Of a DNA stretch of 64,000 bases, positions 34,950-52,811 are shown piece after piece. Each line of letters starts with the position of its first letter. The stretch's first letter is position 1. The notes under the pieces are model-generated. The model saw only the letters and a program-made list of their open reading frames with translations, had not been told where the DNA came from and searched no databases. Source of the DNA: Candidatus Schekmanbacteria bacterium RIFCSPLOWO2_02_FULL_38_14. Its GTDB lineage: Bacteria > Schekmanbacteria > GWA2-38-11. The stretch covers positions 14,207 through 78,206 of the forward strand of contig MGDH01000018.1 in the NCBI GenBank assembly GCA_001790855.1, read 5' to 3'. Made by a program: the position numbers and the translations under genes.

Positions 34950-34991
34950 AAAGATGATTACACAGATTATTTAGGAAGATTATACAGATTT

Positions 34992-37451: not shown

Positions 37452-37465
37452 TCAAGAGGTATTTT

Positions 37466-38152: not shown

Positions 38153-38153
38153 G

Positions 38154-40731: not shown

Positions 40732-40854
40732 CAGGCTGCTTAATGTCATTTCTGCCTGCCTGTCGGCACCTGTCTGCCGCCTGACTGCCGTCAGGCAGGT
40801 CAGGCTGGGACAGGTAAGAGCAGGAATCCAAAAGCAAAGGAGGTTAATAATCTT

Positions 40855-41115
40855 TTGAATCAGCAGAGAGAAGTAATAAAAAATAAATCTGTAAATATTT
40901 TTCAATTACTGATGCTATTTGCTTTCTACTTGTTTGTTGGATCCATAATTGCCTTTGTTGTCAATGGAATTTATAATGCATTGGAAAATAATGATGCTTT
41001 TATGTATTCTATAGTTATAGGAGCAATAGTTATTCCTGTATTTTTGACTTTAACTATTCTGGTTACATTAGTTTTCTGGGTCATCGTGAGAGAAGGCAGG
41101 AAGGATATGAGGTAG
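40855..41115 (+). CDS. small 2-TM membrane protein (possible complex-associated subunit)
   Basis: 86-aa ORF with two hydrophobic helices between the two paralogous cytochrome genes; weak evidence only. Confidence 0.3.
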   Translation: MNQQREVIKNKSVNIFQLLMLFAFYLFVGSIIAFVVNGIYNALENNDAFMYSIVIGAIVIPVFLTLTILVTLVFWVIVREGRKDMR

Positions 41116-41120
41116 AGTTT

Positions 41121-42347
41121 ATGAAGAATCTAAAGAAAATTACCATCTATATGTTTTCAGTTTTTTTGATAGTAGGGTCATTATTAACCGTAGGAATAAA
41201 TGTTGTTTGCAGCACAGAAAAATACCTTTTGCCTGGAGATGCTAAAAAAGGGTGGCAGAGTTTTTTCACCAAAGGGTGCATCAAATGCCATTCTGTTTGG
41301 GGAGAGGGAGGTACAGCCGGTCCTAATCTTGGCATTACACCCTCTAAGCATTTGACTGAAGCAGAGCTTACAGCAGCCATGTGGAACCATGCTCCGGCAA
41401 TGTGGGAGAAAATGTTAGCAAAAGGGATAGATTTTAAAGCCATAAGCCAGGAAGAAATGGCTGATATATTCGCATTTCTCTACTTTATTAGATATATGGA
41501 TGAGCCAGGTAATAAGGAAAATGGAAAAGAGTTGCTGGCCACAAAAAAATGCACTAATTGCCATGCAATTCATGGAAAAGGAGGCAGAGTAGGGCCCGAG
41601 CTGACAAAATGGGGAACATATACTAATCCAATTCTGTGGGCGCAGATGATGTGGAATCATGCACCCCAGATGGAAGAGGAAATGAGGAACAGAGGAATAA
41701 CCTGGCCAATATTTGGTGAAAACGAGATGGTTGATATTATTGTTTATGTAAAGAGTGTCAGTAAATCGGGAGATAAAATTTTTATTTCACCAGGTGACTC
41801 AAAAGACGGTAAAATACTGTTTTCTAAAAAGGGTTGCAGCCATTGCCATTCTACCGAGACAGGTAGCAAAAAGGATGGACCAAATCTTGGAAGGGATTTA
41901 AGAAAAAAAGAATCTTTCCCAAGGACTATTACTCAGGTTGCAGGCCTTATGTGGAACCATTCTCCTGAAATGTGGAAAGAGATGAAAGAAAAGGGAATGA
42001 AGAGGCCAGAGCTCAATCCTCAAGAGATGGCAGATTTAATCGCATATCTTTTTTCTCTCCAATATTTTGATGAGCAAGGAAACAGAGAAAAAGGAGAAAA
42101 GGTATTTAAAGAAAAATATTGCATAAAGTGTCATACAGTGAATGGCAAAGGCGGTCTGAAAGGTCCTGACCTTAAGGAATGGCGCAGGCAGGTTTCGCCA
42201 ATTTCCATGGCGCAAGCTATGTGGAACCATGGTCCTTCAATGTTGGGAGAAATGAAAAAAATGGGCTTTAAATGGCCAAAGTTTGAAGGAAATGAGATAG
42301 TGGATTTGATGGAATATTTAAGAGAACTGGCTAATAAAACACTTTAA
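41121..42347 (+). CDS. tetra-domain c-type cytochrome, paralog of 39502-40731
   Basis: CIKCH, CTNCH, CSHCH, CIKCH with the same four-repeat layout and MWNH motifs; 408 vs 409 aa. Confidence 0.75.
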   Translation: MKNLKKITIYMFSVFLIVGSLLTVGINVVCSTEKYLLPGDAKKGWQSFFTKGCIKCHSVWGEGGTAGPNLGITPSKHLTEAELTAAMWNHAPAMWEKMLAKGIDFKAISQEEMADIFAFLYFIRYMDEPGNKENGKELLATKKCTNCHAIHGKGGRVGPELTKWGTYTNPILWAQMMWNHAPQMEEEMRNRGITWPIFGENEMVDIIVYVKSVSKSGDKIFISPGDSKDGKILFSKKGCSHCHSTETGSKKDGPNLGRDLRKKESFPRTITQVAGLMWNHSPEMWKEMKEKGMKRPELNPQEMADLIAYLFSLQYFDEQGNREKGEKVFKEKYCIKCHTVNGKGGLKGPDLKEWRRQVSPISMAQAMWNHGPSMLGEMKKMGFKWPKFEGNEIVDLMEYLRELANKTL

Positions 42348-42379
42348 GTTATATTATGTGAAAAAGGGAGGTTATTAAA

Positions 42380-43549
42380 ATGAAATATAAAAAACATTTT
42401 ATTTTCCTTATTTTTTTTCTCCTGCTTTATATTAATGTAATTTATGGATTTTCCAAGGATTGGCTGGAAAAGTTAAGTTCTGAATTTAAAGGACAAGAAT
42501 TTATCTCATCCAATATCTGTGGCAAATGTCATGTTGATATTTTCAAGTATTGGAAGAATTCTATGCATTCCCTCTCTTATCAAGACCCGATTTTTATGAA
42601 TGCGTATAAACAGGCTTTTTTCGATACTGACGGGAAGGCAAAAGAGTTTTGCCTTAGATGCCATGCCCCTATTGCTTACTATAGTAAAGACTTTGGATTC
42701 AAAAATGAAGTGAGCAAAGAGGGTATTACATGTGACTTCTGTCATTCTGTTTCTGGAATAGACCTGGATAATTTTAATCAACCTTATAAAGTTGAACCTA
42801 GTAAGACAAAATATGGTCCGCATAAGAATATGGAATCTCCGGTTCATATTACCAAGGCAACAAATTATTTTAGAAGATCTGAATTCTGTGCCGGCTGCCA
42901 TGAGCTTAAAGGAAAGAACGGAGTCAACATCATAAGTACTTACTCAGAGTGGAAAGAAGGGCCTTATTCCAAAAAAGGAATCCAATGTCAAAACTGCCAT
43001 ATGCCTTACGGTCCAGGCTCCATCGTTGACCAGAACCTAAAAAAGAGTGTGGTTAGAATGAATTTGCATGATGTCTCCGGAGGTCATTCAGTGGAACTTC
43101 TTGGTAAAGTAGCAAAGGTAGAAATTATAGAGCTTAAAAAGGGGGATGGAACTATTTCTGCCAAAGTTAAAGTAACAAATGTCAAATCCGGACACAAAAT
43201 ACCTACAGGCACCCCTACAAGAGAGTTGATTCTCAAAGTAACAGTAAAAAATTCCAAAGGGAATACACTGTGTCAAGACTCCAAAGTTATTAAAAAAACC
43301 TTGGCAGATGAGCAAAATAAAGAGCTCCTGACTGACAGCGATATTATTCTGAATGCAAATAGTATCTTGAGTGATAACCGGATTCCCCCAGGAGGCTCAA
43401 GAGAGTTTCTCTTTTCATTAGACTGCAATTTAAAAGGTGAATTTTTTGTTGAAGCATCGCTGATTTATATGTATAGACCTGAAATCACTACCTACGGGGA
43501 AATGTCAATTGATATGTCTAAGGATAGTAAAAAATTAGGTGTTAAATAG
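42380..43549 (+). CDS. pentaheme c-type cytochrome, periplasmic (389 aa)
   Basis: Signal peptide; CGKCH, CLRCH, CDFCH, CAGCH, CQNCH; C-terminal ~150 aa heme-free beta-rich region. Confidence 0.75.
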   Translation: MKYKKHFIFLIFFLLLYINVIYGFSKDWLEKLSSEFKGQEFISSNICGKCHVDIFKYWKNSMHSLSYQDPIFMNAYKQAFFDTDGKAKEFCLRCHAPIAYYSKDFGFKNEVSKEGITCDFCHSVSGIDLDNFNQPYKVEPSKTKYGPHKNMESPVHITKATNYFRRSEFCAGCHELKGKNGVNIISTYSEWKEGPYSKKGIQCQNCHMPYGPGSIVDQNLKKSVVRMNLHDVSGGHSVELLGKVAKVEIIELKKGDGTISAKVKVTNVKSGHKIPTGTPTRELILKVTVKNSKGNTLCQDSKVIKKTLADEQNKELLTDSDIILNANSILSDNRIPPGGSREFLFSLDCNLKGEFFVEASLIYMYRPEITTYGEMSIDMSKDSKKLGVK

Positions 43550-43672: not shown

Positions 43673-44245
43673 ATGAGAAAAAGAACAGCCTTGGTTTTTG
43701 TGTTTATATTTTTCTCTTTAATTTTAATTAGTAAAGTTCCAGGCGAAGAGACAAAATATAATTACATGGGTGTATTTAAATGCAAGACCTGCCATGCAAA
43801 TGTAAAGCTTGGTGGAACTGAGCATCAGGTATGGGAAAAAAGTGCCCATTCAAAGGCATACCAGACTTTGGCAAGTGAAAAAGCTAAAGCAAAGGCAAAG
43901 GAGCGGGGCATTGATGATCCTCAGAAGAGTGAGAAATGCTATAAGTGTCATGTGACAGGCTATGGGGTTGATAAAAGCAGATTTGATAAAAAGTTTAAAA
44001 TTGAAGATGGTATTCAGTGTGAAGAGTGCCATGGTCCTGGAGAGGGTTATTATCCCCGGTTTGTGATGCAGAAAAGAGATGAGTCAATAAAGAAGGGTTT
44101 GATAATTCCAGATGAAAAGGTATGTGTTAAGTGCCATAATGAAGAGAGCCCTTTTTATAAAAAATTTAATTTCAAAGAATTTTTTGCAAAGATGGATCAC
44201 AAGGGCCTTGGAACAAGTAAAGTAGGAGGAGGGAGTAAGAAGTAG
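43673..44245 (+). CDS. tetraheme c-type cytochrome (190 aa)
   Basis: Signal peptide; CKTCH, CYKCH, CEECH, CVKCH; own RBS aggagg upstream. Confidence 0.75.
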   Translation: MRKRTALVFVFIFFSLILISKVPGEETKYNYMGVFKCKTCHANVKLGGTEHQVWEKSAHSKAYQTLASEKAKAKAKERGIDDPQKSEKCYKCHVTGYGVDKSRFDKKFKIEDGIQCEECHGPGEGYYPRFVMQKRDESIKKGLIIPDEKVCVKCHNEESPFYKKFNFKEFFAKMDHKGLGTSKVGGGSKK

Positions 44246-44298
44246 GGTAGAGGCAGGTCTCCTGACCTGCCATTTTCAAAGCAAAAAAATTTAATTCT

Positions 44299-46203
44299 AT
44301 GAATGAAAAGAAATACAAAGTAGAGATTCCAGATTTAGAATATTACCAGCGTGTAATTAATTGCCAGTATGCCTGTCCAGTTAAAACTGCTGCTGGAAGC
44401 TATGTTACTGCAATTACAGATAGGGAATATGAAAAGGCTTATGATTTTGCAAGAATGCCAAATCCCTTTGTTTATGTCTGTGGAAGGATATGTGACCATC
44501 CATGTGAAACAGCCTGCAGGCGTGGTGCTATTGATGAGCCAATAGCAATATGCGCCCTTAAGAGAACAGCCACTGACCACCATAATTTGAGTTTAGGTCA
44601 TTGGCTAGGCTTGCCTCTTGAAAAGAAAAGAGAGGAAAAGGTAGCTGTTATTGGCGCAGGACCAGCAGGTTTATCAGCAGCCAATGATTTAGCAAGGCTC
44701 GGTTATCAGGTTACTGTTTTTGAAGCATCACCTGTCGCTAGTGGAATGTTATATCTTGGTCTGCCAGGTTATCGCCTGCCAAGAGATATAATCAAATTAG
44801 AGGTTGATTCCATATTAAACCTTGGGGTTGAGCTTAAGACAAATACTCCTTTGGGTGAAGGGTTGAATTTAGAGGATTTAAAGAGGCAAAAATATAAGGC
44901 AATTTTTATTGCTACAGGATGCACAAAAAGCAGGGATTTAAATATAGAAGGAGCTAATCTTGACGGGGTCTTAAAGGGTGTTGATTTTCTCTTAAACATT
45001 AACCTCGGTTATAGGGTTGAACTTGGGAAGAGGGTCATTGTAATTGGTGGTGGAAATGTGGCAATGGATGTGGCTCGTTCAGCTATCAGAAAAGGAACAG
45101 AGCTTGAATCTTTAAGCCCTGAGGAGATGAAAGATGCTTTGGAAAAGGCAAGAAAGGCATTACAGCAATTGGTTGAGAGTGAAGAGGAGAGAGAAAAGGA
45201 GATGCACATTGCAATGGATGTTGCAAGGTTAGCTCTGAGAAAAGGGGCAAAGGATGTGCATTTAGTCTGCCTTGAATCAAGAGAAGAGATGCCTGCCCAT
45301 GCTTGGGAGACAGAAGAAGCATTCGCAGAGGGGATTGTGTTTCATAATAGACTCGGGCCAAAAAGGATTTTAGGAAGAGATGGAAAGGTTACAGGCATTG
45401 AGACCATTAGATGCTCGTCGGTTTTTGATAGTGAGCATAGATTTAATCCAACCTTTATCAAAGGGACAGAAGAATTTATTGAGGCTGATTCAATTATTTT
45501 GGCTATTGGCCAGGCAGCAGATATCTCTTTTTTCAAGAAAGAGGATGGCATTTCAATAACTCGCCAGGGTTTGATAGAAGTTAATCCTGACACCCTCGCA
45601 ACAACAGCAGATGGAATTTATGCAGGTGGAGATATAGCTTTTGGGCCAAGAAATGTTATTGCAGCAATTGCAGATGGACAGAAGGCTGCAAGGTCAATTG
45701 ACTCTTATTTAAGAGGAGAGAGCAAGAAAAGGATTCGGGCAAGAATGGCAGTGATTAAGGATCATAAGATGCATGAAGGATATGAGAGAATCAAAAGGCA
45801 GAAAATGCCTACATTGCCACTTAATAGAAGGATTGGCATTGCTGAGGTAGAATTAGGTTTTTCTGATGAACAGGCAATAGAAGAAGGGAAGCGATGCCTC
45901 AGATGCAATATAAATACAGTCTTTAATGGTAATAAATGTATCCTGTGTGGTGGGTGTGTAGATATATGTCCTGAATATTGCTACAGAATGGCAAAAATTG
46001 AAGAGTTAGAAGAGAATGAGGTTCTTGAAAAGTTAGTTGAAGCAAGATATGGCATTTCTTTTGAAAAATTAAAAAGTGAAAGTGGTTTAAACAGGGCTAT
46101 GATAAAGGATGAAGAGAAATGCATTAGATGCGGCCTATGTGCTGAGCGCTGCCCTACTGGTGCTATTACTATGGAGCTTTTTGAATATAGTGAAAGGATT
46201 TAA
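44299..46203 (+). CDS. NfnB/GltD/SudA-like FAD- and NAD(P)-binding iron-sulfur oxidoreductase with C-terminal 2x[4Fe-4S] ferredoxin domain
   Basis: N-terminal Cys cluster (CQYACP...C), FAD motif VAVIGAGPAGLSAANDLARLGYQVTVFE, second Rossmann VIVIGGGNVAMDVA, C-terminal CILCGGCVDICP and CIRCGLCAERCP. Confidence 0.75.
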   Translation: MNEKKYKVEIPDLEYYQRVINCQYACPVKTAAGSYVTAITDREYEKAYDFARMPNPFVYVCGRICDHPCETACRRGAIDEPIAICALKRTATDHHNLSLGHWLGLPLEKKREEKVAVIGAGPAGLSAANDLARLGYQVTVFEASPVASGMLYLGLPGYRLPRDIIKLEVDSILNLGVELKTNTPLGEGLNLEDLKRQKYKAIFIATGCTKSRDLNIEGANLDGVLKGVDFLLNINLGYRVELGKRVIVIGGGNVAMDVARSAIRKGTELESLSPEEMKDALEKARKALQQLVESEEEREKEMHIAMDVARLALRKGAKDVHLVCLESREEMPAHAWETEEAFAEGIVFHNRLGPKRILGRDGKVTGIETIRCSSVFDSEHRFNPTFIKGTEEFIEADSIILAIGQAADISFFKKEDGISITRQGLIEVNPDTLATTADGIYAGGDIAFGPRNVIAAIADGQKAARSIDSYLRGESKKRIRARMAVIKDHKMHEGYERIKRQKMPTLPLNRRIGIAEVELGFSDEQAIEEGKRCLRCNINTVFNGNKCILCGGCVDICPEYCYRMAKIEELEENEVLEKLVEARYGISFEKLKSESGLNRAMIKDEEKCIRCGLCAERCPTGAITMELFEYSERI

Positions 46204-46210
46204 GCAGAAG

Positions 46211-46345
46211 GGTTCGAGGATTCGAGGGTTCAAATGAAAATCAAAGTTTAAAAATAAAAAATTAAAATTTTGGTATTTGAATTTTGATATTTGATTTTTA
46301 TTTCACTTGAACCCTTGACACCTAGACCCCTTGAACCCTTTTTTG
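46211..46345. repeat. palindromic element, family A variant with GC-rich arms (gggttcgagg...cttgaaccc)
   Basis: gggttcgaggattcgagggttcaaatg...ttcacttgaacccttgacacctagaccccttgaaccc; arms match those of 15531-15668. Confidence 0.55.
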
Positions 46346-46355
46346 AGGTTAACTA

Positions 46356-46829
46356 ATGTCTAAAGACGAAAAAATAGAGGAAATTTCACGTAGATATTTT
46401 TTAGCAGCAGGATGGTCATCTCTTGGCATTATTATGGCTGGCTCAGCCGGTGCAAGCATTCGCTTCTTGCTCCCCAATGTTCTTTTTGAGCCTCCAACTT
46501 CTTTTAGAATTGGAAAGCCTGAAGACTATGCTGATGGTTCAGTAAATTTTTTTCCTGAGAGAAAGATCTTTGTAATTAAAAAAGAGAATGGAATTTTTCA
46601 AACTATCTCTGCAGTATGCACTCATCTACGTTGTATTGTGAAATGGTCAGAGACAAACAAGAATTTTGAGTGCCCCTGCCATGGAAGTATATTTGATGGG
46701 AAAGGCAGAATTATTGGTGGACCTGCTCCAACACCACTTGACTGGTATGAGATAACACTTGGAGAGGATGGTAAATTGTTCATAGATACTATGAAAGTTG
46801 TGGATAGCGGATATTATTTAAAGGTATAA
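46356..46829 (+). CDS. Rieske [2Fe-2S] iron-sulfur subunit of a cytochrome bc-type complex
   Basis: TAT-like RRYFLAAG; CTHLRC...CPCHGS Rieske boxes. Confidence 0.85.
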   Translation: MSKDEKIEEISRRYFLAAGWSSLGIIMAGSAGASIRFLLPNVLFEPPTSFRIGKPEDYADGSVNFFPERKIFVIKKENGIFQTISAVCTHLRCIVKWSETNKNFECPCHGSIFDGKGRIIGGPAPTPLDWYEITLGEDGKLFIDTMKVVDSGYYLKV

Positions 46830-46987
46830 AACATTTCTCCTCATCCTTTATCCTTCTCCCCATAGGGGAGAAGGCAGGTTGAGGGGGAGAAGAAAAACAT
46901 TCAACCCCAGAAGGGGTTTCCCACAGGAAATTGTGGGAGAGAATAAGAGGGACGACAGAGACGTCGTTCCCTACATGATAGGATAAT

Positions 46988-48472
46988 ATGGGGAATATAT
47001 TAAGCAAGTGGACTGAAAGAATTACACAAAACAGAATCTGGAAATCAATTTTCAGACATGGCTATCCTGATACAGAGCTTAATCAATCCCTTGTCATGTA
47101 TACCAATCTTTTTCTTCATATTCAACCTGTAAAGGTTCATAAAAATGTTTTAAGACCATCATATACCTTAAGCCTTGGTTTGATCTCTTTTATACTATTT
47201 CTTGTCCTTGTAATAACAGGGATATATTTAATGTTCTATTATGTCCCTTCAGTTGACAGGGCTTACAATGATATGAAGGAGCTTCAATTTGTTGTCTCCT
47301 TTGGCATATTTTTGAGAAACCTGCACCGATGGTCAGCTCATGGAATGGTGGCTGCAGTATTTTTACATATGTGCAGGGTTTTCTATACGGCTTCTTATAA
47401 ACCTCCAAGAGAATTTAACTGGGTCTTAGGAGTTATACTTTTAATAGTGACATTTGGTTTAAGTTTTACAGGCTATCTTCTTCCCTGGGACCAGCTTGCT
47501 TTCTGGGCAATTACAGTGGGTACAAGCATTGCCAGCTATGCACCAATTATTGGGCAGAAACTACGCTATTTTCTGTTAGGTGGGAATATTGTTGGGCAGA
47601 ATGCTCTTTTGCGGTTTTACGTTCTCCACTGCGTTGTTCTGCCATCAGTTGCTGCTGTCTTAATAGGAATACATTTCTGGCGGATAAGAAAGGATGGAGG
47701 GTTATCAAAGCCTGCAGAAAAATTAAAACAAGAAGAAAAGTTTGAAGAGCTGCAGGAAGAAGGGCTTTCCCCAAAAGGAACAAGTAAGACTTATGGTTTA
47801 ATGGAACTTGTAAAAGGTGCTACTATTCCTGTAGAACAGGAGCCCGAGAATGAGATAATGTCATGGCCACATTTGATCTTTAGAGAGTTCCTTGTCGCCA
47901 TAGTTGTTTTAGTAGTGCTTATTGCTATTTCCTTATTTTTTAATGCACCTCTTGAGGAGCTTGCAAATCCTTCAGAGCCTCCGAATCCAGCAAAGGCTCC
48001 ATGGTATTTCTTAGGACTTCAGGAGCTTGTATCTTATTCAGCCTTTATAGGAGGTGTAATTACACCTTTTCTTGTTGTTTTTGCGCTCCTGATGGCAATA
48101 CCTTATATAGATTACAGAGCAGAAGATGTGGGGATATGGTTTTCCTCTAAGAAGGGTCGTTTAATAGCATTAATTACAGCAACCCTGACATTAATAAGTA
48201 TTCCTGTCTTGATTTTTCTTAATATGAAATACGGGATTAGAGTTTTCTACCCTGATGCTCCTTCAATTCTTGTGGATTTGATAAATCCTGGAACAATTCT
48301 GATTGGAGTTACAGCAGTTATCTCAATTATTATAGGGGTCCGCACTAAGTCATGGAGGTTAGCTGCCATGATGATATTTACCTCCTTTGTAACTGGTTTT
48401 ATTGTGTTGACTGTTATTGGAACATTATTCAGGGGTCCTAACTGGGAGTTTGTTTTCCCATGGAAAGGATAA
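46988..48472 (+). CDS. cytochrome b (fused b6 + subunit-IV-like, 494 aa) of bc-type complex
   Basis: Conserved cytochrome b N-terminus ([12 protein letters not shown] ... [10 protein letters not shown]) and C-terminal PEWY-region equivalent ([10 protein letters not shown]); additional C-terminal TM helices. Confidence 0.85.
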
Positions 48473-48508
48473 AAAAATATATAGGAGTCTGTCAGAGAAC
48501 CCTTTTTT

Positions 48509-48659
48509 GTCATTGCGAGCGACTCCCTCGATATTGCTCGGGACAGGCTCCGGGAGCGTGGCAATCTCAAATCCCCCTATATCCCCCTTTTCCCTGCCTG
48601 CCGGTAGGCAAGTAAAGGGGGAGAAAAGAGGGATTGCTTTGGATTCGCCTCGCAATGAC
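48509..48659. repeat. nested palindromic element ~150 nt: family D termini, then GCAATCTC/GAGGGATTGC, then family B C-runs, then family C core
   Basis: gtcattgcgagcgactccc...gtggcaatctcaaatccccctatatcccccttttccctgcctgccggtaggcaagtaaagggggagaaaagagggattgctttggattcgcctcgcaatgac. Confidence 0.6.
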
Positions 48660-48713
48660 AAGAAAACTCATATTATTTAGAATTTCGAATTTAGGATTTT
48701 AGATTTTAAATAC

Positions 48714-49808
48714 ATGGTTAAATATTTTACATTTTTTAGTATTATTCTCCTGGTCTTTTTTTCTCTTGCCATCTTTAAGGATTATGATAGAGAGTGGAAG
48801 GATTTCCAGAAGAGGTTCTACGAGATTGAATCAGAGAGAGGAAAAAACGCTGAAGAGAAAAAAGTGATAAGAAATACTCCTTTGAGAATAAAACAGATAG
48901 TGTTAGAGGATTTGAATAGAGTTGATAGGTGCACAACCTGCCATCTCGGAATGGAATATGAGAAAAAGTCTTACAAAAAGAATCCATATAAGTCTCATCC
49001 CGACCCAACAATGCATCCCTTTGATCAATTTCCCTTTGATAGATTTGGATGCACCATCTGCCATGAAGGGCAGGGAAGAGCTACTACAAAGGATGATGCC
49101 CATGGTGATGTGGATTTCTGGGATAAGACCATGCTAAGGGGTATTTATCTGCAAGCCTCATGTCTAAAATGTCATGATGACCCTGACCTTAAGGGTGCTG
49201 AGATTGCAATGAAAGGGAAAAAACTTTTTGAGGAAAATGACTGCTATGAGTGTCATAAAGTAGGAGATAAAGGAGAAAGTGTAGGACCTGAGCTTACAAA
49301 GGAAGGATTAAAGACAAAACACCATTTTGATTTTACCCGTGTAAAGGGCAAGCACACTATTGCTAACTGGCAATTCGAGCATCTAAAAAATCCGGAAGCA
49401 GTTGTTCCTGATTCAGTGATGCCAAATTTGGAACTCAGTGATGAAGATGCAAGAGCCTTGACTATATATCTCTTAAGCCTTACTGATGAAAAGGTGCCAG
49501 AAGAATACATAGCGTCTCTAAAAAGAGGTCCTATCCTTGCATTAAGTAGAAAAGTTACAAAGCCTGAGATGAGTCCAGGTGAAAAGCTTTATATAGAGAT
49601 GAACTGCTATTACTGCCATAAGATAAAAGGGGAAGGAGGTGATGGAGCACCTGATTTAACTGGAGTTGGCGCAAGGCATGATGAAGATTGGCTTATAAAA
49701 CATTTTGACACTCCGCGGTCAATAAGTCCTCATTCTTTTATGCCTGACTATAAACTTACACCCGAGGAGATAAAGGCTCTGACAGATTTTATGTTGACTT
49801 TGAAATAG
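48714..49808 (+). CDS. pentaheme c-type cytochrome associated with the Rieske/cyt b genes (C-terminal class-I monoheme domain)
   Basis: N-terminal TM anchor; CTTCH, CTICH, CLKCH, CYECH, CYYCH; C-terminal CYYCHKIKGEGGDGAPDL...FMPDY typical class-I cytochrome c. Confidence 0.75.
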   Translation: MVKYFTFFSIILLVFFSLAIFKDYDREWKDFQKRFYEIESERGKNAEEKKVIRNTPLRIKQIVLEDLNRVDRCTTCHLGMEYEKKSYKKNPYKSHPDPTMHPFDQFPFDRFGCTICHEGQGRATTKDDAHGDVDFWDKTMLRGIYLQASCLKCHDDPDLKGAEIAMKGKKLFEENDCYECHKVGDKGESVGPELTKEGLKTKHHFDFTRVKGKHTIANWQFEHLKNPEAVVPDSVMPNLELSDEDARALTIYLLSLTDEKVPEEYIASLKRGPILALSRKVTKPEMSPGEKLYIEMNCYYCHKIKGEGGDGAPDLTGVGARHDEDWLIKHFDTPRSISPHSFMPDYKLTPEEIKALTDFMLTLK

Positions 49809-49840
49809 CTATGAGACAAAGGTTTTCATAAAACAATCAA

Positions 49841-50000: not shown

Positions 50001-52790
50001 ATGATTGAAGAAGTATTTTTGATACTGAAAAGAAAATGGTTTATATGTGCATTGGCTTTTCTTTTTGCCATTTCAGCATCCTATGTTTTTGAGAAAGAAG
50101 CCAGTGCAGCAAAAACTTATAACATAGTGGTTAAGATAAAGTCAAATAAAGCCACTAACAGAACAGGCGTAGCGGTAGAGGTCACAGGAGGAGATTTAAC
50201 AACACCCAAGACTGCTACAACGAAAAAAACAGGTATTGTAAAGTTTACAAAACTTGCTAAAGGAACTTACACTGTTACTCCTGCAAAGGAAGGCTATACC
50301 TTTGACCCTGAATCAAAGCCTGTTACATTTGCAACAAGGAGAACAGTAAATGTTGTTTTTAAGTCAACAGAGGTTGTAATTCCTGTTACTGAAGAGGCTA
50401 TAACTCTGTCAACATCTGCAAACGGGACTCACTTTGCTGCGGGTGAGAAACCAATAATCACCATTTCTCTGCCCGACCTGTCCAGCCGCAGTGACTATTC
50501 GCAGCTACGCCTGGTGGTTTATGGTCCACAGGAAACGACCAAGACTAAAACAGCGGTGAATCTGCTCAATGCGTCCACTGACCGTTCCTTAGCTAACACG
50601 GGCCCGCATCACTACATTGACCTCGTTACAGACACCAATGTTCAGCTCAATGATAATATTCTGACCTATACGCTCCAGCCAATCACAGATGAAGAAGCAG
50701 GGACATACACAGCAAGTTTGTGGGCTGTTTTGAAAGATGACCCTTCTGTGCAGTCGTTCCCGCTTGCTGATTTCCAGATTGGAACAGCTACTGCTGAGAC
50801 GCAAATAGTAGAGAGGGAAAATTGTTCTGTCTGCCATAAGGGTGCTGATAGCGGGAAATATTACTTCCATCACATAGATCCTCGTACCGCCGGTTCATCT
50901 GGATACCCATCAATTGACTCGTGGGCAGTGAGAACGTGCAAGAGCTGCCATAACACAGATGGCTATGCAGCATACACTGATCCCGCTAATCCCTCTGCCA
51001 CTGATGGCTCTAATAAAATTCCGGATCCGATTGTAAAGCGTGTACATGGTGTTCATATGGGAGAGGAGTTAAAGAACGCGCTCAACACTGACGCGACGAC
51101 AGGTATTTTCAAAAACTACACAAGTGTGGTATTTCCTGCAAATGTCAAGAACTGCACTATGTGTCACGTGGATGATAAATGGAAGACCACACCTTCACGT
51201 CTTGCTTGTGGCGCCTGCCATGATAATATCTGGTTTGGTGATCCGGCAGCCCTTCCTTCAGGACAAGAGGCACATCCTGGTTTACAACAGGATAGCGATA
51301 CCGGATGCTCTACCTGCCACCCTGCAGATGGTTCATGGACCAAGGGTTCGGCACCTGCACCCATTTCAACGGTTCACAAGGTTGATTCGCCAGCTTACAA
51401 GTATACTGTAGAGATTAGCCTAAGCGCACCGGCAAATGAGACTCACTATGTTGCGGGCGAGGCGCCTCAGGTAACAATAACAATCAAAGATGCTACCACT
51501 GGTGCCACAATTGACCCGAACACGCTAACAGAGACCGCCTTCAGCCGTGCCTCTCTCTACGTCTCCGGCCCGCGTGAAAATACAAAACCTGTGCTTACCA
51601 CCTCGGCCAAGGGCCTTGGAGCCGTCCGTGCTTTGGCGACGAACAGCAAGGATGGACCCTGGGATCTGTCAGGCGACCCTACCTTTATCATTGGCATTGA
51701 CGGTACCTCCCGCACGGTAACGGCTGCGGCAAGTAATTTCGCAAATCCGGCAGCTGCGACCCAGGCAGAGGTCATTACATGGCTGAAAAAGGCGCTTCCT
51801 GATGGCATTGGCGATGTGGCGACAGTCTCTGCGTCTGGCACAACAAAAGTCACGATTAAAAGCAATACCAGAGGCTCGACATCCAAGGTCGAGATCTTTG
51901 CAAGTTCAGTTGCAACGGCTATGGGGTGGACCGTTGGTGCGAAAACCCCTACACCTCGTTCCTATGCCAGCAATGACTTCCGCGTCCGCAAAGATTCTTT
52001 TGATGAGGATCCGAAGGTGAGTCGTTCCACCACTGCAGTTACGTACCAGTTAGACGATGTTGCCGGTCTGACCTCAGGCACCTATACTGCTTTTGCCCAG
52101 ATGAGTCCGACATCTGGTTTTGGCGGCTCGGCGGTGGTCAATTTCCAAGTGGGTGGGGCTACAGAAGAAAAGAAGGTTGCTACAAACTGTACCAATTGCC
52201 ATGGTGATACAACAATGCACAGCACCTCCTTATCAGTGCCATTCAATCCAGACATCTGCAAGAACTGCCACGATTACAATCGTGAGGGGACTGGATATGG
52301 TTGGGCCGGCGCTCCCCCGACCGGAACGAACGGGACCTCAACGAGCGGCTGGAGCGGTTTTGGTGCCAAGCCCTTATCAAGCAGAATCCACGGTGTTCAC
52401 CGCGGTCGTTATCTGGAGCATCCTGAGGATGTAAAACCACTGTATAGGCTCGTAAGCGGGGTTGCCACGTATTGGCCTGAATACGATTTCTCTGAAGTGA
52501 TTTTCCCTCAGGATATAAGAAACTGCACCAAGTGTCACAGCGCCGATACGACCGGGACTTGGAAGACAGAACCATCTCGGTTAGCCTGTCTTGCCTGCCA
52601 CGACAACGATGAGGCAACTACCCACGGTAATCTGATGACGTATGATACGACACCTACAGATCCATGGAGCGGTGATGAGATAGAGACATGTGTTGTGTGT
52701 CATGGTTCTGGTAGGGACTTTTCTCCTGACAAGGTGCACAATATCTCGAGTCCCTATAAGCCACCGTATCTACGAGAGCCTGCAGAGTAA
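50001..52790 (+). CDS. large secreted decaheme c-type cytochrome (929 aa), mosaic composition
   Basis: Signal/anchor N-terminus, beta-sandwich N-domain. Ten CxxCH sites: CSVCH, CKSCH, CTMCH, CGACH, CSTCH, CTNCH, CKNCH, CTKCH, CLACH, CVVCH. Internal duplicated module (CxxCH...WKT.PSRLAC.ACHDN occurs twice). Bases ~50420-52790 are ~55% GC vs ~33% elsewhere. Confidence 0.8.
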   Translation: MIEEVFLILKRKWFICALAFLFAISASYVFEKEASAAKTYNIVVKIKSNKATNRTGVAVEVTGGDLTTPKTATTKKTGIVKFTKLAKGTYTVTPAKEGYTFDPESKPVTFATRRTVNVVFKSTEVVIPVTEEAITLSTSANGTHFAAGEKPIITISLPDLSSRSDYSQLRLVVYGPQETTKTKTAVNLLNASTDRSLANTGPHHYIDLVTDTNVQLNDNILTYTLQPITDEEAGTYTASLWAVLKDDPSVQSFPLADFQIGTATAETQIVERENCSVCHKGADSGKYYFHHIDPRTAGSSGYPSIDSWAVRTCKSCHNTDGYAAYTDPANPSATDGSNKIPDPIVKRVHGVHMGEELKNALNTDATTGIFKNYTSVVFPANVKNCTMCHVDDKWKTTPSRLACGACHDNIWFGDPAALPSGQEAHPGLQQDSDTGCSTCHPADGSWTKGSAPAPISTVHKVDSPAYKYTVEISLSAPANETHYVAGEAPQVTITIKDATTGATIDPNTLTETAFSRASLYVSGPRENTKPVLTTSAKGLGAVRALATNSKDGPWDLSGDPTFIIGIDGTSRTVTAAASNFANPAAATQAEVITWLKKALPDGIGDVATVSASGTTKVTIKSNTRGSTSKVEIFASSVATAMGWTVGAKTPTPRSYASNDFRVRKDSFDEDPKVSRSTTAVTYQLDDVAGLTSGTYTAFAQMSPTSGFGGSAVVNFQVGGATEEKKVATNCTNCHGDTTMHSTSLSVPFNPDICKNCHDYNREGTGYGWAGAPPTGTNGTSTSGWSGFGAKPLSSRIHGVHRGRYLEHPEDVKPLYRLVSGVATYWPEYDFSEVIFPQDIRNCTKCHSADTTGTWKTEPSRLACLACHDNDEATTHGNLMTYDTTPTDPWSGDEIETCVVCHGSGRDFSPDKVHNISSPYKPPYLREPAE

Positions 52791-52811
52791 ATAAAGCAAG
52801 GTGGATTCGTT

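What the first reader, a model, noticed from the sequence alone, without database searches (positions are those of the whole stretch)
43673..49808. Rieske/cytochrome b genes accompanied by an NfnB/GltD-like NAD(P)-binding flavo-FeS subunit and multiheme cytochromes
A 634-aa FAD/NAD(P)-binding protein with an N-terminal FeS cluster and a C-terminal double-[4Fe-4S] ferredoxin domain sits directly between a tetraheme cytochrome and the Rieske gene. It is followed by cytochrome b and a membrane-anchored pentaheme cytochrome. Canonical bc1/b6f operons have no flavoprotein. From memory (not verified), comparable non-canonical Rieske/cyt b clusters with an NAD(P) oxidoreductase subunit and multiheme cytochromes were reported in anammox planctomycetes and proposed to couple quinol oxidation to NAD(P)+ reduction. 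This locus looks like a member of that poorly characterised class, in a different genomic and compositional background.
Basis: partly seen in the sequence, partly recalled or inferred. Interest (0 to 1): 0.8.

Follow-up and report, generated by a model that had tools for sequence, protein, structure and literature searches.

The report
Flavoprotein-bearing Rieske/cytochrome b complex outside anammox
An uncultured groundwater bacterium (Candidatus Schekmanbacteria) carries a relative of respiratory complex III with an added NAD-binding flavoprotein, previously described only in anammox bacteria; close relatives occur in more than ten other phyla, so the proposed trick of making NAD(P)H directly from quinol may be widespread.

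Summary
There is a tetrahaem c554-like cytochrome, a 634-aa NfnB/GltD-type FeS flavoprotein, a Rieske protein, a fused cytochrome b6/subunit-IV protein and a membrane-anchored pentahaem cytochrome, all on the + strand.

The subunits compared are homologous to the Kuenenia Kustd1480-1485 complex: flavoprotein 39% identity over its full length, cytochrome b 54%, SUIV part 45%, multihaem c 31%. The Rieske protein's best solved relatives are Kuste4569 and Kustd1480. His44 of cytochrome b aligns with the His62 proposed to bind an extra haem b in Kuenenia.

The window comes from Candidatus Schekmanbacteria, not from an anammox organism. Flavoprotein-Rieske-cytochrome b linkage held in every member of the window's clade examined, and in 4 of 4 loci chosen through cytochrome b alone. 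These loci span more than ten phyla, and two also carry a cbb3 oxidase.

Differences from the anammox type:
- No haem cN cysteine.
- An NAD-type "CLES" motif instead of the NADP-type "YRR".
- A 50-aa insert in the flavoprotein.
- Fused cytochrome b and a different gene order.

The function, menaquinol bifurcation to NAD+ and a high-potential acceptor, is inferred and has not been shown. A REP-like hairpin followed by a U-run lies between the flavoprotein and Rieske genes.

The parts
43673..44245 (+). Secreted tetrahaem c554-type cytochrome (190 aa). Candidate p-side electron carrier of the complex.
   Evidence: PF13435 E 5e-20. 4 CXXCH motifs and an N-terminal signal-like segment. A 40%-identical homolog sits directly upstream of the flavoprotein in L003. 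A c554-like gene is also in the Kuste4569-type locus L085.
44299..46203 (+). Cytoplasmic NfnB/GltD-type FeS flavoprotein (634 aa). It has an N-terminal two-cluster domain, FAD and NAD(H) Rossmann domains with a 50-aa insert (residues 254-303), a linker carrying an RCLxC motif, and a C-terminal 2x[4Fe-4S] ferredoxin domain.
   Evidence: Pfam and NCBIfam hits. Best PDB hits are 9bov/9bp5 NfnABC, 9n5u, 4ylf NfnB and 5jca. 39% identity over the full length to the Kuenenia Kustd1483 ortholog. C22, C26, C65, C69, C73, C533, C536 and both CxxCxxCxxxCP motifs are conserved. 'VCLES' stands where NfnB and Kuenenia have 'YRR'. No signal peptide or TM segment.
46204..46355 (+). Flavoprotein-Rieske spacer. 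It is occupied by a copy of a dispersed AT-rich/palindromic intergenic repeat that folds into a long hairpin followed by UUUUUU. It may act as an attenuator or mRNA-stability element.
   Evidence: Sequence. Fold -49.9 kcal/mol, z -6.6. Repeat copies at 15583-15635 and 1982-2019. In L001, L002, L003 and L088 the two genes overlap by 8 nt instead. The consensus terminator scan found nothing here.
46356..46829 (+). Rieske [2Fe-2S] subunit (157 aa), Tat-type N-terminus/anchor, Ser-Phe signature.
   Evidence: PF00355. Best PDB hits are 9rk4 (Kuste4569, E 7e-24) and 9rk3 (Kustd1480, E 5e-21), ahead of b6f Rieske proteins. CTHLRC and CPCHGSIF boxes and SRRYFL.
46830..46987 (+). Rieske-cytochrome b spacer with four stable hairpins.
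   Evidence: Fold -69.5 kcal/mol, z -6.6. No + strand terminator-like site in the scan.
46988..48472 (+). Fused cytochrome b6-like (4 TM) plus SUIV-like (5 TM) subunit (494 aa). It has an APWY-type Qo motif and a conserved N-terminal extension carrying invariant His44. The haem cN cysteine is absent (Ser62).
   Evidence: Pfam. b6 alignment: Cys35 corresponds to Ser62 and the four His are conserved. His44 aligns with Kuenenia His62 and is invariant in 24 of 24 sequences. The AKAPWYF motif is present in 24 of 24. 9 TM helices by hydropathy and by a low-confidence AF2 model.
48563..48641 (.). Copy of a second dispersed palindromic repeat, in the cytochrome b - cytochrome c spacer.
   Evidence: Family D4: 94% identical to 55924-56002, with a third copy at 4508-4586.
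48714..49808 (+). Membrane-anchored pentahaem cytochrome c (364 aa) with C-terminal class-I/FixO-like domains. It takes the place of cytochrome f/c1.
   Evidence: 5 CXXCH motifs and an N-terminal hydrophobic helix. Pfam Cytochrom_C, FixO and Cytochrome_CBB3. Homologs lie downstream of cytochrome b in nearly all related loci. 31% identity over 329 aa to the Kuenenia 946-aa multihaem subunit.
34446..39488 (+). Context: four genes resembling QrcABCD, a CISM-type cytochrome c:menaquinone oxidoreductase. They are a pentahaem c7-like cytochrome, a Tat-exported molybdopterin-family subunit with an FS0 motif, a 4Fe-4S subunit and an NrfD-type membrane subunit.
   Evidence: Best NCBIfam hits are QrcA, QrcB and QrcC; the NrfD-type membrane subunit's best hit is DsrP (132 bits), with QrcD only a weak third (41 bits). 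All are below cut-off. Pfam. Tat motif and CxxCxxxC...C. The same module lies directly upstream of the flavoprotein in L001 and L002.
39502..43549 (+). Context: two paralogous tetrahaem class-I cytochromes c (409 and 408 aa) and a pentahaem cytochrome (389 aa).
   Evidence: Internal repeats D1-D3. Homologs of the class-I cytochromes are in the L001 cluster.
50001..52790 (+). Context: OmcA/MtrC-like decahaem cytochrome (929 aa) with raised GC (0.45-0.48). It is bracketed by a duplicated ~230-nt flank and followed by the only strong + strand terminator (52811-52849).
   Evidence: TIGR03507 184 bits, cut-off 209. 10 CXXCH motifs. GC profile. Repeats D8, D9 and D14. Terminator.
53150..54679 (+). 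Context: secreted EB_dh (haem-b-binding) plus TIG domain protein.
   Evidence: PF09459 E 4e-27. An EB_dh protein is also present in the L001 cluster.

Best explanation
The five genes encode a Rieske/cytochrome b complex with a cytoplasmic NfnB-like FeS flavoprotein docked on its n-side. It is homologous, in each subunit compared, to the Kuenenia Kustd1480-1485 complex.

Proposed mechanism (inferred, following Kartal et al. as summarised in PMC12954380):
1. Menaquinol is oxidised at an APWY-type Qo site and its two electrons are split.
2. One electron goes to the mid/high-potential Rieske cluster. It passes on to the membrane-anchored pentahaem cytochrome and soluble multihaem cytochromes, and ends at a high-potential acceptor.
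3. The other electron goes to haem bP, then haem bN, then an extra haem b held between the two His44 of the cytochrome b dimer.
4. From there it passes through four FeS clusters of the flavoprotein to FAD, which reduces NAD+ in the cytoplasm. The motif predicts NAD+ rather than NADP+.

There is no haem cN, and a Q cycle is probably not run. The upstream Qrc-like module would feed the menaquinol pool from periplasmic cytochromes.

What is shown: gene content, homology, conserved ligands and conserved synteny. What is inferred: physical assembly, the extra haem, the direction of electron flow and the identity of the high-potential acceptor.

My confidence that this is a true homolog of the anammox flavoprotein-R/b complexes is about 0.9. 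My confidence in the bifurcating NAD+-reducing direction is about 0.45-0.5.
For: Homology to the Kuenenia complex:
- Flavoprotein 39%, cytochrome b 54%, SUIV part 45%, multihaem c 31%.
- The Rieske protein's best solved relatives are Kuste4569 and Kustd1480.
- The flavoprotein's best PDB relative is the same NfnABC entry (9bov/9bp5) that the Kuenenia study found for Kuste4570.

Conserved electron-path residues:
- His44 aligns with Kustd1481 His62, the proposed ligand of the novel haem b, and is invariant in 24 of 24 flavoprotein-linked cytochromes b.
- R234/K235 correspond to Kustd1481 R266/K267, proposed to neutralise that haem's propionates. They are invariant among the 26 fused cytochrome b sequences aligned, and the IRKDG motif is kept in the other loci, with one K-to-Q exception.
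- The flavoprotein Arg617 before the last Cys-Pro is conserved as R or K in 21 of 21.
- Fifteen conserved Cys fit four FeS clusters with one non-Cys ligand, as modelled in Kuenenia.

Topology:
- The flavoprotein has no export signal.
- The Rieske protein has a twin-arginine motif.
- The cytochromes c have signal or anchor segments.

Synteny:
- All 19 loci with a window-type or full-length R/b-type flavoprotein carry Rieske and cytochrome b adjacent on the same strand.
- 4 of 4 loci chosen via cytochrome b alone carry the flavoprotein.
- 8-nt gene overlaps occur in L001, L002, L003 and L088.

Potential and acceptor:
- The Rieske Ser-Phe signature matches Kustd1480, measured at +335 mV. Kao & Hunte predict 'Mid+' for this signature.
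- Two relatives embed a cbb3 oxidase in the cluster, which supplies an obvious high-potential sink.
Against: - No biochemical demonstration of quinol:NAD(P)+ activity exists for any member, including Kuenenia.
- Kao & Hunte argue that APWY-type complexes run in reverse.
- The organism belongs to a lineage reported as a putative sulfite/sulfate reducer. No high-potential terminal acceptor is evident in the window.
- By my estimate, the acceptor must lie above about +300 mV once membrane potential is counted. Fe(III) oxides at neutral pH would not suffice.
- Haem cN, part of the Kuenenia model's path, is absent here.
- The extra haem b is an AlphaFold3 prediction in the literature. It is not an observed cofactor.
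- The flavoprotein-Rieske spacer has a hairpin plus U6 that could uncouple transcription.
- My AF2 model of cytochrome b is of low confidence, with mean pLDDT 62 and about 50-60 in the N-terminal extension.
Confidence: 0.5

Rival explanations
1. Same complex, opposite direction. NADH enters through the flavoprotein and the b haems. Together with electrons from a high-potential periplasmic donor arriving via the cytochromes c and the Rieske protein, it reduces menaquinone at the Qo site. This would be confurcation, that is, reverse operation for lithotrophic electron uptake.
For: [quoted passage not shown] The window's cluster is rich in periplasmic and possibly extracellular multihaem cytochromes, including an OmcA/MtrC-like decahaem protein.
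Against: - It consumes NADH to make quinol, which is wasteful unless quinol is limiting.
- A Qrc-like quinone reductase is already encoded next door.
- The relatives linked to a cbb3 oxidase fit forward flow to O2 better.
- The Kuenenia authors judged NAD(P)H-to-quinone flow unlikely.
Confidence: 0.2
2. The flavoprotein is an n-side electron input to the b haems, as FNR is proposed to be for b6f in cyclic flow. NADH would reduce quinone at an n-side site, or pass electrons across the membrane to periplasmic cytochromes. No bifurcation would be involved.
For: - The cofactor chain FAD, 4 FeS, haem b, bN and bP is reversible in principle.
- DsrL, which has the same architecture, oxidises and reduces NAD(P) at measurable rates.
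- The conserved IRKDGG region at the n-side is retained.
Against: - There is no haem cN, and no evidence for an intact Qn site.
- The Rieske subunit and the Qo motif are strictly conserved. A simple NADH dehydrogenase or transmembrane wire would not need them.
Confidence: 0.15
3. The flavoprotein is an independent soluble enzyme, such as DsrL-like NAD(P)H:acceptor oxidoreductase or an Nfn/GltD paralog. It merely neighbours an otherwise ordinary menaquinol:cytochrome c reductase.
For: - DsrL has the identical domain order, and Schekmanbacteria are reported to carry DsrL-2.
- Architecture-sharing relatives at 27-38% identity are not R/b-linked: L015 (MvhD fusion), L031, L055 and L073.
- The hairpin plus U6 lies between the flavoprotein and Rieske genes in the window.
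Against: - Linkage is conserved in 19 of 19 plus 4 of 4 loci across more than ten phyla, despite four different gene orders. The flavoprotein is found first, between Rieske and cytochrome b, between cytochrome b and SUIV, and after cbb3 genes.
- 8-nt translational-coupling overlaps occur.
- Window-type flavoproteins form one clade, apart from the DsrL-like ones.
- No dsr genes lie in the 64-kb window.
- In Kuenenia all subunits co-migrate (ref. 9 cited in PMC12954380).
- No NfnA partner gene is present.
Confidence: 0.05

Closest known systems
Kuenenia stuttgartiensis Kustd1480-1485 Rieske/cytochrome b complex ('R/b-2')
   Same: - Same subunit set: Rieske, b6-like cytochrome b, 5-TM SUIV-like part, NfnB-like FeS flavoprotein and multihaem cytochrome c.
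- 31-54% identity in the four subunits compared pairwise.
- Ser-Phe Rieske signature.
- His62 corresponds to His44, and R266/K267 to R234/K235.
- Identical AKAPWYF Qo motif.
   Different: - Gene order: Kuenenia has Rieske, cytochrome b, a small ORF, flavoprotein, SUIV and multihaem c. The window has flavoprotein, Rieske, cytochrome b-SUIV and cytochrome c.
- Cytochrome b and SUIV are fused here.
- The haem cN cysteine is replaced by Ser62.
- 'CLES' replaces the NADP-type 'YRR'.
- 50-aa insert in the NAD domain.
- Pentahaem 364-aa protein rather than a 946-aa multihaem subunit.
- Non-anammox host with no anammoxosome.
- The flavoprotein falls in a different NJ clade.
Kuenenia Kuste4569-4574 complex ('R/b-3', with HAO-like octahaem subunit)
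   Same: - The Rieske protein's best PDB hit is Kuste4569 (9rk4).
- The flavoprotein is adjacent to the Rieske gene.
- A c554-like multihaem gene is in the cluster.
   Different: - No HAO-like octahaem protein here.
- The Rieske protein has Ser-Phe, not Ser-Tyr.
- The only locus fetched (L085) is frameshifted, so the comparison is partial.
Cytochrome b6f complex
   Same: - Cytochrome b is most similar to b6 among canonical complexes (E 2e-43).
- The four His ligands are present.
- b6/SUIV organisation.
- b6f-like Rieske fold family.
   Different: - No cytochrome f.
- No haem cN cysteine.
- APWY instead of PEWY.
- SUIV part with 5 rather than 3 TM helices.
- About 27 extra N-terminal residues carrying His44.
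- A flavoprotein subunit.
'APWY clade' of cytochrome b (Kao & Hunte 2014), including the Geobacter ExtP/ExtQ (selenite/tellurite-reduction operon) b-type cytochromes, whose NCBIfam models are the window's best hits
   Same: - APWY Qo motif with a Mid+/high-type Rieske protein.
- Best NCBIfam hits are ExtP (273 bits, cut-off 290) and ExtQ.
   Different: - The paper describes that clade without reference to a flavoprotein partner.
- I did not test whether flavoprotein-less members keep His44.
NfnB / Bfu-type NfnABC large subunit and DsrL
   Same: - Fer4_20 two-cluster domain plus FAD and NAD(P) Rossmann domains.
- DsrL also has the ~100-aa linker and the C-terminal 2x[4Fe-4S] ferredoxin domain.
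   Different: - No NfnA partner and no dsr context.
- The first two Cys of the NfnB distal cluster are missing at the N-terminus. An invariant RCLxC sits in the linker instead.
- Genetically tied to Rieske and cytochrome b.
Qrc complex (QrcABCD) of sulfate reducers, for the upstream module
   Same: - Same four-subunit layout.
- Best NCBIfam hits are QrcA, QrcB and QrcC; for the membrane subunit QrcD is only a weak third hit after DsrP.
   Different: - All scores are below the equivalog cut-offs.
- The molybdopterin-family subunit keeps an FS0 Cys motif. A catalytic Psr/Phs/Arr-like enzyme is therefore not excluded.

Membership tests
Anammox-type flavoprotein-bearing Rieske/cytochrome b complex (Kustd1480-85 / Kuste4569-74) | Rieske, b6-type cytochrome b and SUIV-like genes clustered with an NfnB/GltD-like FeS flavoprotein gene homologous to Kustd1483/Kuste4570 | tested here: met
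   39% identity over residues 5-632, E 4e-146. Same best PDB relative, 9bov/9bp5.
Anammox-type flavoprotein-bearing Rieske/cytochrome b complex (Kustd1480-85 / Kuste4569-74) | Multihaem cytochrome c in place of cytochrome f/c1 | tested here: met
   Pentahaem and membrane-anchored. 31% identity over 329 aa to the Kuenenia multihaem subunit, E 4e-49.
Anammox-type flavoprotein-bearing Rieske/cytochrome b complex (Kustd1480-85 / Kuste4569-74) | SUIV-like part with five TM helices | tested here: met
   Five hydrophobic segments at 290-482. AF2 helices 293-317, 352-374, 388-415, 434-453 and 456-480, in a low-confidence model.
Anammox-type flavoprotein-bearing Rieske/cytochrome b complex (Kustd1480-85 / Kuste4569-74) | N-terminal His of cytochrome b (His62/His43) proposed to ligate an extra inter-monomer haem b, with nearby basic residues | tested here: met
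   His44 aligns with His62 and R234/K235 with R266/K267. Invariant in 24 of 24. The presence of the haem itself is not testable here.
Anammox-type flavoprotein-bearing Rieske/cytochrome b complex (Kustd1480-85 / Kuste4569-74) | Haem cN (covalent Cys on cytochrome b, Glu axial ligand) | tested here: not met
   b6 Cys35 and Kuenenia Cys80 correspond to Ser62 in the window. The Cys is kept in only 3 of 24 linked cytochromes b.
Anammox-type flavoprotein-bearing Rieske/cytochrome b complex (Kustd1480-85 / Kuste4569-74) | High-potential Rieske cluster (> +300 mV measured in Kuenenia) | tested here: inconclusive
   The sequence signature CPCHGS-I-F (Ser-Phe, as in Kustd1480) and both disulfide Cys are present. 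The potential was not measured.
Anammox-type flavoprotein-bearing Rieske/cytochrome b complex (Kustd1480-85 / Kuste4569-74) | NADP-type YRR motif in the flavoprotein (present in the Kuenenia ortholog) | tested here: not met
   The window has V-C-L-E-S at that position. YRR occurs only in Kuenenia and two Limnocylindria loci.
Anammox-type flavoprotein-bearing Rieske/cytochrome b complex (Kustd1480-85 / Kuste4569-74) | Flavoprotein physically part of the membrane complex; quinol-dependent NAD(P)+ reduction | not testable with these tools
   Only indirect support: conserved synteny, gene overlaps in relatives, and co-migration reported for Kuenenia.
APWY clade of cytochrome b (Kao & Hunte 2014) | Qo motif A-P-W-Y with a Mid+/high-type Rieske partner | tested here: met
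   [15 protein letters not shown]. Ser-Phe Rieske signature. Definition taken.
Canonical cytochrome b6f / bc1 | PEWY/PDWY Qo motif, cytochrome f or c1, Qn/Qi site (haem cN in b6f), no flavoprotein | tested here: not met
   APWY motif, pentahaem c, no haem cN Cys, flavoprotein present.
DsrL (criteria of PMC7596348) | Domain order: N-terminal 2x[4Fe-4S], FAD with embedded NAD(P) domain, ~100-aa linker, C-terminal 2x[4Fe-4S] | tested here: met
DsrL (criteria of PMC7596348) | Functional and genomic association with dsrAB/dsr genes | tested here: not met
   No dsr genes lie in the 64-kb window. The gene is tied to Rieske and cytochrome b in all clade members. DsrL-like loci L055 and L073 cluster elsewhere in the tree. 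The rest of the genome was not examined.
NfnAB transhydrogenase | NfnB large subunit paired with an NfnA (FAD/[2Fe-2S]) subunit | tested here: not met
   There is an NfnB-like core, but no NfnA-like gene in the cluster.
Qrc complex (upstream module 34446-39488) | QrcA-D equivalog-level matches | tested here: inconclusive
   Best hits for three subunits but below cut-offs: QrcA 104/180, QrcB 310/440, QrcC 316/400. For the membrane subunit QrcD scores only 41/570 and DsrP is the best hit.

The most novel reading that the evidence does not exclude
The window is one example of a large and so far undescribed main clade of flavoprotein-bearing Rieske/cytochrome b complexes.

Features of this clade:
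- No haem cN.
- An NAD-type motif in the flavoprotein.
- A His44-ligated inter-monomer haem b.

It occurs in Acidobacteriota, Nitrospirota, Verrucomicrobiota, Planctomycetota, Chlamydiota, Actinomycetota and several candidate phyla.

It would act as a modular quinol-bifurcating NAD+ reductase whose exergonic branch is exchangeable:
- cbb3 oxidase in some lineages.
- HAO-like protein in the separate anammox branch of the family.
- Multihaem or OmcA-like cytochromes in Schekmanbacteria.

In Schekmanbacteria it would work with a Qrc-like quinone reductase as a pmf-independent route from periplasmic electron donors to cytoplasmic NADH.
Probability: 0.35. Interest if true: 0.8.

Novelty: new variant of a known kind. 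Interest (0 to 1): 0.6.

Why it matters
Whether a Rieske/cytochrome b complex can use quinol-based bifurcation to reduce NAD(P)+ has been an open proposal for more than a decade, and it rests on slow-growing anammox enrichments.

Two points follow from this work.

- **The module is not tied to anammox chemistry.** The same module, with the same candidate extra-haem ligand, occurs in many non-anammox phyla. In some lineages it is wired to a cbb3 oxidase.
- **New test systems and predictions.** It points to alternative organisms and to natural variants: haem cN present or absent, YRR versus CLES. It also gives concrete predictions, namely a third haem b per dimer axis, NAD+ specificity, and dependence on a high-potential acceptor.

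If the mechanism holds, many anaerobes and microaerophiles would have a way of making NADH from the quinone pool that does not run through complex I. This would change redox-balance models for uncultured lineages.

If the mechanism fails, the conserved flavoprotein still marks an uncharacterised mode of operation of one of the best-studied respiratory enzymes.

Tried and rejected
- **Incomplete genome scan.** The synteny survey is therefore a sample and not a census, and it did not return the Kuenenia loci.
- **Route to the Kuenenia loci.** I obtained them indirectly. I used the PDB Rieske fragments as a profile and then look-up of encoding contigs.
- **L085 unusable for full comparison.** This Kuste4569-type locus is a frameshifted long-read contig. 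It was usable only through tblastn.
- **L015 is not an exception to linkage.** It has 39% identity and no Rieske gene. It is a different architecture, fused to an MvhD-like C-terminal domain.
- **No clean identity threshold for linkage.** L031 is 38% identical to the Kuenenia flavoprotein and L015 is 38.5% identical to the window's. Neither is R/b-linked. Clade membership in a rough NJ tree is the better criterion, but that tree is distance-based and carries no support values.
- **Terminator scan incomplete.** The consensus scan found nothing in the three internal spacers. Folding showed a long REP-like hairpin followed by U6, which the scan's loop limit misses.
- **Rfam.** No family matched in 34000-55000.
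- **AF2 of cytochrome b.** Mean pLDDT was only 62. I used it only for helix counting and ran no fold search.
- **Literature.** Searches found the flavoprotein-R/b complex discussed only for anammox bacteria. ten Brink et al. 2013 (BBA) is not held, so prior mention elsewhere cannot be excluded.
- **His44 specificity untested.** I did not test whether His44 is specific to flavoprotein-linked members or general to the APWY clade, for example Geobacter ExtP. No flavoprotein-less APWY sequence was retrieved.
- **Magnetotactic affiliation dropped.** The MamH-like transporter hit is below cut-off, and exact protein matches give Schekmanbacteria.

Full report
**1. The observation**

The five ORFs are present at exactly the stated coordinates on the + strand.

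- 43673-44245 is a 190-aa cytochrome of the c554 family (Pfam E 5e-20). It has four CXXCH motifs and a signal-like N-terminus.
- 44299-46203 is a 634-aa protein with three parts:
  - a Fer4_20 two-cluster domain at residues 21-95;
  - Pyr_redox_2 FAD/NAD(P) Rossmann domains (E 4e-35);
  - a C-terminal ferredoxin domain with two CxxCxxCxxxCP motifs.
  
  It has no signal peptide or TM segment.
- 46356-46829 is a Rieske protein with CTHLRC and CPCHGSIF boxes and a twin-arginine motif, SRRYFL.
- 46988-48472 is a 494-aa cytochrome b (E 2.7e-43). It contains both a b6-like half and a subunit-IV-like half.
- 48714-49808 has five CXXCH motifs and an N-terminal hydrophobic anchor.

**2. Organism and setting**

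Ten window proteins match exactly proteins of Candidatus Schekmanbacteria MAGs from the Rifle aquifer. The MAGs are RIFCSPLOWO2_02_FULL_38_14, RIFCSPLOWO2_12_FULL_38_15 and GWA2_38_9. There the flavoprotein is annotated 'hypothetical protein' and the cytochrome b 'cytochrome B6'. The host is therefore not an anammox planctomycete. Schekmanbacteria have been listed among carriers of reductive-type dsrAB and DsrL-2 (PMC7596348).

The cluster lies inside a 20-kb run of 15 co-directional genes, 34446-54679.

- Upstream are four genes whose best NCBIfam matches are QrcA, QrcB and QrcC (DsrP for the NrfD-type membrane subunit, with QrcD a weak third hit). All scores are below the equivalog cut-offs. 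The molybdopterin-family subunit keeps a Tat signal and an FS0 cysteine motif.
- Next come two paralogous tetrahaem class-I cytochromes and a pentahaem cytochrome.
- Downstream are an OmcA/MtrC-like decahaem cytochrome and an EB_dh/TIG protein.
- A periplasmic binding protein, a sensor kinase and a LuxR-type response regulator precede the array.
- The rest of the window is ordinary housekeeping.

**3. Homology to the anammox complexes**

PMC12954380 describes Kuste4569-4574 and Kustd1480-1485 as follows:

- They are b6f-like complexes with a putative NAD(P) oxidoreductase on the n-side.
- They have a five-helix SUIV-like subunit and multihaem cytochromes.
- Their Rieske potentials are +303 and +335 mV.
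- They have an AlphaFold3-predicted extra haem b, bound between the two His43/His62 of the cytochrome b dimer.

I fetched a Kuenenia sp. Kustd1480-type locus (L084) and a Kuste4569-type locus (L085). The comparisons gave these results.

- The window flavoprotein is 39% identical to the Kustd1483 ortholog over residues 5-632 (E 4e-146). The only large difference is a 50-residue insert, 254-303.
- Cytochrome b is 54% identical. Window His44 falls exactly on Kuenenia His62, and R234/K235 fall on R266/K267.
- The SUIV part is 45% identical and has the identical string [15 protein letters not shown].
- The pentahaem cytochrome is 31% identical over 329 residues to the 946-aa Kuenenia multihaem subunit.
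- Among all solved structures, the window Rieske protein is closest to 9rk4 (Kuste4569) and 9rk3 (Kustd1480), ahead of the b6f Rieske proteins.

**4. Is the linkage conserved?**

Starting from the flavoprotein:

- The two close relatives looked up individually have flavoprotein, Rieske, cytochrome b and cytochrome c in that order. The first two genes overlap by 8 nt. One of them (L001) also shares the Qrc-like module, the class-I cytochromes and an EB_dh protein.
- A scan of one genome per species returned 80 loci.
- Every locus with a full-length R/b-type flavoprotein has Rieske and cytochrome b directly downstream. This covers L004-L014, L016, L017, L021, L022 and L076.
- The taxa are Acidobacteriota (Terracidiphilus, Bryobacteraceae, Chloracidobacterium, Acidiferrum), Eisenbacteria, Abyssobacteria, Waddliaceae, Planctomycetota, Actinomycetota and Limnocylindria.
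- The shorter GltD/NfnB-like hits from Clostridia, Collinsella, Bacteroidia and others have none.

Starting from cytochrome b alone:

All four carry the flavoprotein in the cluster.
- In L088 (Nitrospirae) the gene order is the same as in the window.
- In L087 the cluster lies next to NuoF/NuoG-like and molybdopterin genes.
- In L086 and L089 (Verrucomicrobiae) the order is Rrf2, Rieske, cytochrome b, cytochrome c, CcoN, CcoO, two small ORFs, flavoprotein. A cbb3-type oxidase is thus embedded in the cluster.

Linkage survives at least four different gene orders. This argues for a functional tie and not for inherited adjacency.

Architecture-sharing relatives exist that are not linked:

- L015 is an MvhD-fused form.
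- L031 is an alphaproteobacterial protein.
- L055 and L073 are DsrL-like proteins next to DsrO/DsrP-like genes.

In a rough NJ tree the window-type flavoproteins form one clade. The Kuenenia and Limnocylindria proteins form a separate clade, and the DsrL-like proteins fall elsewhere. The tree is distance-based and has no support values.

**5. Anatomy relevant to mechanism**

Cytochrome b:

- The four canonical haem-b histidines (H113, H127, H214, H229) are invariant.
- The Qo motif is AKAPWYF in 24 of 24 linked sequences. This places the protein in the 'APWY clade' of Kao & Hunte 2014. That clade pairs with Mid+/high-type Rieske proteins, and no member has been characterised.
- The Rieske signature is Ser-Phe, as in Kustd1480. 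23 of 25 linked Rieske proteins have the Ser.
- The b6 Cys35 that binds haem cN is Ser62 in the window. Only Kuenenia and the two Limnocylindria loci keep the cysteine.
- An N-terminal extension about 27 residues longer than in b6 carries the motif W-x-S-[IV]-[FV]-R-x(19)-[FL]-L-H. His44 is invariant in it.
- Hydropathy gives nine TM helices, four plus five. An AF2 model agrees, but its mean pLDDT is only 62.

Flavoprotein:

- Conserved cysteines are C22, C26, C65, C69, C73, C533 and C536, plus the eight of the two ferredoxin motifs.
- The first two cysteines of the NfnB distal cluster are absent at the N-terminus. An invariant R-C-L-x-C sits in the C-terminal linker. I infer that it completes that cluster.
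- K88 stands where NfnB has Glu117. This matches the 'three Cys plus a buried lysine' cluster described for Kuenenia.
- This gives four clusters, the number modelled between the extra haem and FAD in Kuenenia.
- The residue before the last Cys-Pro (R617) is R or K in 21 of 21 sequences. By position it corresponds to or neighbours Kustd1483 Arg550, which is proposed to contact the haem propionates.
- The NADP-selective Y-R-R of NfnB is present in the Kuenenia and Limnocylindria proteins. In the window it is C-L-E-S, and in the rest of the clade it is x-L-E. An acidic residue at this position is the usual mark of NAD(H) preference. That rule is established knowledge about Rossmann folds; I did not test it here.

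The three loci that keep the haem cN cysteine are the same three that keep YRR. This suggests two subtypes.

**6. Most likely mechanism**

The parts list, the topology and the conserved ligands fit the model proposed for Kuenenia.

- Menaquinol is oxidised at Qo.
- One electron goes to the Rieske cluster and on to the c-type cytochromes.
- The other crosses the membrane through bP and bN to the His44 haem, then through four FeS clusters to FAD, and reduces NAD+.

My own estimate of the energetics is an inference. With menaquinone near -75 mV and NAD+ at -320 mV, the low-potential electron must also move against the membrane potential. The high-potential branch must therefore end above roughly +300 mV.

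- This fits O2 in the cbb3-linked relatives, and nitrite in Kuenenia.
- It leaves the acceptor in Schekmanbacteria open. The OmcA-like decahaem protein hints at an extracellular oxidant. Fe(III) oxides at neutral pH would be too weak.

The adjacent Qrc-like module could refill the menaquinol pool from periplasmic cytochromes.

Nothing here shows assembly, the extra haem or the direction of flow. I put about 0.9 on true homology with the anammox complexes and about 0.45-0.5 on the bifurcating NAD+-reducing direction.

Rivals:

- Reverse (confurcating) operation, as Kao & Hunte suggest for APWY complexes: about 0.2.
- Flavoprotein as an n-side NADH input without bifurcation: about 0.15.
- An unrelated DsrL-like enzyme that is merely adjacent: about 0.05, because of the synteny evidence.

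**7. Co-transcription**

- In the window the flavoprotein and Rieske genes are 152 nt apart. In L001, L002, L003 and L088 they overlap by 8 nt.
- The spacer is filled by a copy of a dispersed intergenic repeat, with other copies at 15583-15635 and 1982-2019.
- That copy folds into a hairpin of -49.9 kcal/mol (z -6.6) ending in six U, just before the GAGG ribosome-binding site of the Rieske gene.
- The Rieske-cytochrome b spacer has four hairpins (-69.5 kcal/mol). The cytochrome b-cytochrome c spacer holds another repeat family, 94% identical to 55924-56002.
- The consensus scan finds no + strand terminator in these spacers. The only strong one is at 52811-52849, after the decahaem gene.
- I read the long gaps as repeat insertions into an operon. 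Attenuation at 46345 cannot be excluded without RNA data.

**8. Novelty**

- In the literature I could search, the flavoprotein-bearing complex is discussed only for anammox bacteria. One relevant review is not held.
- The window's complex is a clear homolog that differs in one cofactor (no haem cN), in predicted nucleotide specificity, in gene fusion and order, and in host biology.
- It belongs to what appears to be the larger and undescribed branch of the family.
- I rate it a new variant of a known kind, bordering on a new member.
- Interest is moderate to high. The locus itself is not strange once the anammox precedent is known. Its wide distribution and the cbb3-linked forms make an old and untested proposal more general and easier to test.

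Noticed in passing
window 46204-46355, 48563-48641, 15583-15635, 1982-2054, 4508-4586, 55924-56002; also 3042, 40752, 40781, 63205: Several families of dispersed palindromic or AT-rich intergenic repeats (REP/MITE-like) populate the genome. Examples are 'CTGCCTGCCGGCAGGCAGG' (7 copies) and 'AAATCCCCCC...GGGGGGATTT' (4 copies). Copies sit inside the R/b cluster spacers and explain the unusually long gaps.
   Followed up: partly
window 49764-49986 vs 52894-53141; gene 50001-52790: About 230 nt, comprising the 3' end of the pentahaem gene and the following spacer, is duplicated after the OmcA/MtrC-like decahaem gene at 73-84% identity. That gene has a higher GC content (0.45-0.48) than its neighbours (~0.39). 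It looks like an insertion between the pentahaem and EB_dh genes.
   Followed up: partly
L086 6516-13335 and L089 6525-14421: In two relatives, one of them from Verrucomicrobiae, the cluster reads Rrf2, Rieske, cytochrome b, cytochrome c, CcoN, CcoO, two small ORFs, flavoprotein, DsbD-like. A cbb3-type oxidase is thus embedded between the R/b genes and the flavoprotein.
   Followed up: partly
L084, L021, L022 versus all other linked loci: The haem cN cysteine in cytochrome b and the NADP-type YRR motif in the flavoprotein co-occur in Kuenenia and in two Limnocylindria loci. Both are absent everywhere else. This suggests two subtypes of the complex.
   Followed up: partly
window 45061-45252 (flavoprotein residues ~254-320): The NAD-domain helix is duplicated internally ('AMDVARSAIRKG' and 'AMDVARLALRKG'), flanking a Glu/Lys-rich ~50-aa insert. 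The insert length varies across the clade. It is absent in Kuenenia, Nitrospirae L088 and Waddliaceae L014.
   Followed up: partly
window 45895-45906 (flavoprotein R532-C536): An invariant R-C-L-x-C motif resembles the start of the NfnB/GltD N-terminal cluster domain, but here it lies in the C-terminal linker. The two equivalent N-terminal cysteines are missing. This may be a permuted ligand set for the distal [4Fe-4S] cluster.
   Followed up: no
window 20058-23231 (- strand): The public records name this protein 'cytochrome-c peroxidase'. It is a full-length AcrB/RND transporter (PF00873, E 5e-302), flanked by genes for a membrane-fusion protein and an outer-membrane factor. This is a likely misannotation.
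   Followed up: yes
window 8896-10203 (- strand): An MFS transporter whose best NCBIfam hits are the magnetosome transporters MamH (276 bits, cut-off 300) and MamZ. No other magnetosome genes were seen in the window.
   Followed up: no
window 39502-40731 and 41121-42347: Two adjacent ~408-aa tetrahaem class-I cytochromes are paralogs built from internally repeated units (repeat families D1-D3, D7, D15). They are separated by a 390-nt spacer with two palindromic repeats and an 86-aa ORF without Pfam hits.
   Followed up: no
L015 6780-8855: In a Planctomycetes MAG, a 691-aa relative of the flavoprotein (38.5% identity) carries an extra C-terminal Cys-rich domain that looks MvhD-like (my reading of the sequence, not tested) and has no R/b neighbours. 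It shows the same flavoprotein core recruited to a different partner.
   Followed up: partly
window 4670-7393 (- strand): A 907-aa protein has a geranylgeranyl-reductase family domain only in residues ~493-811. The N-terminal ~490 residues have no match in the NCBIfam scan.
   Followed up: no
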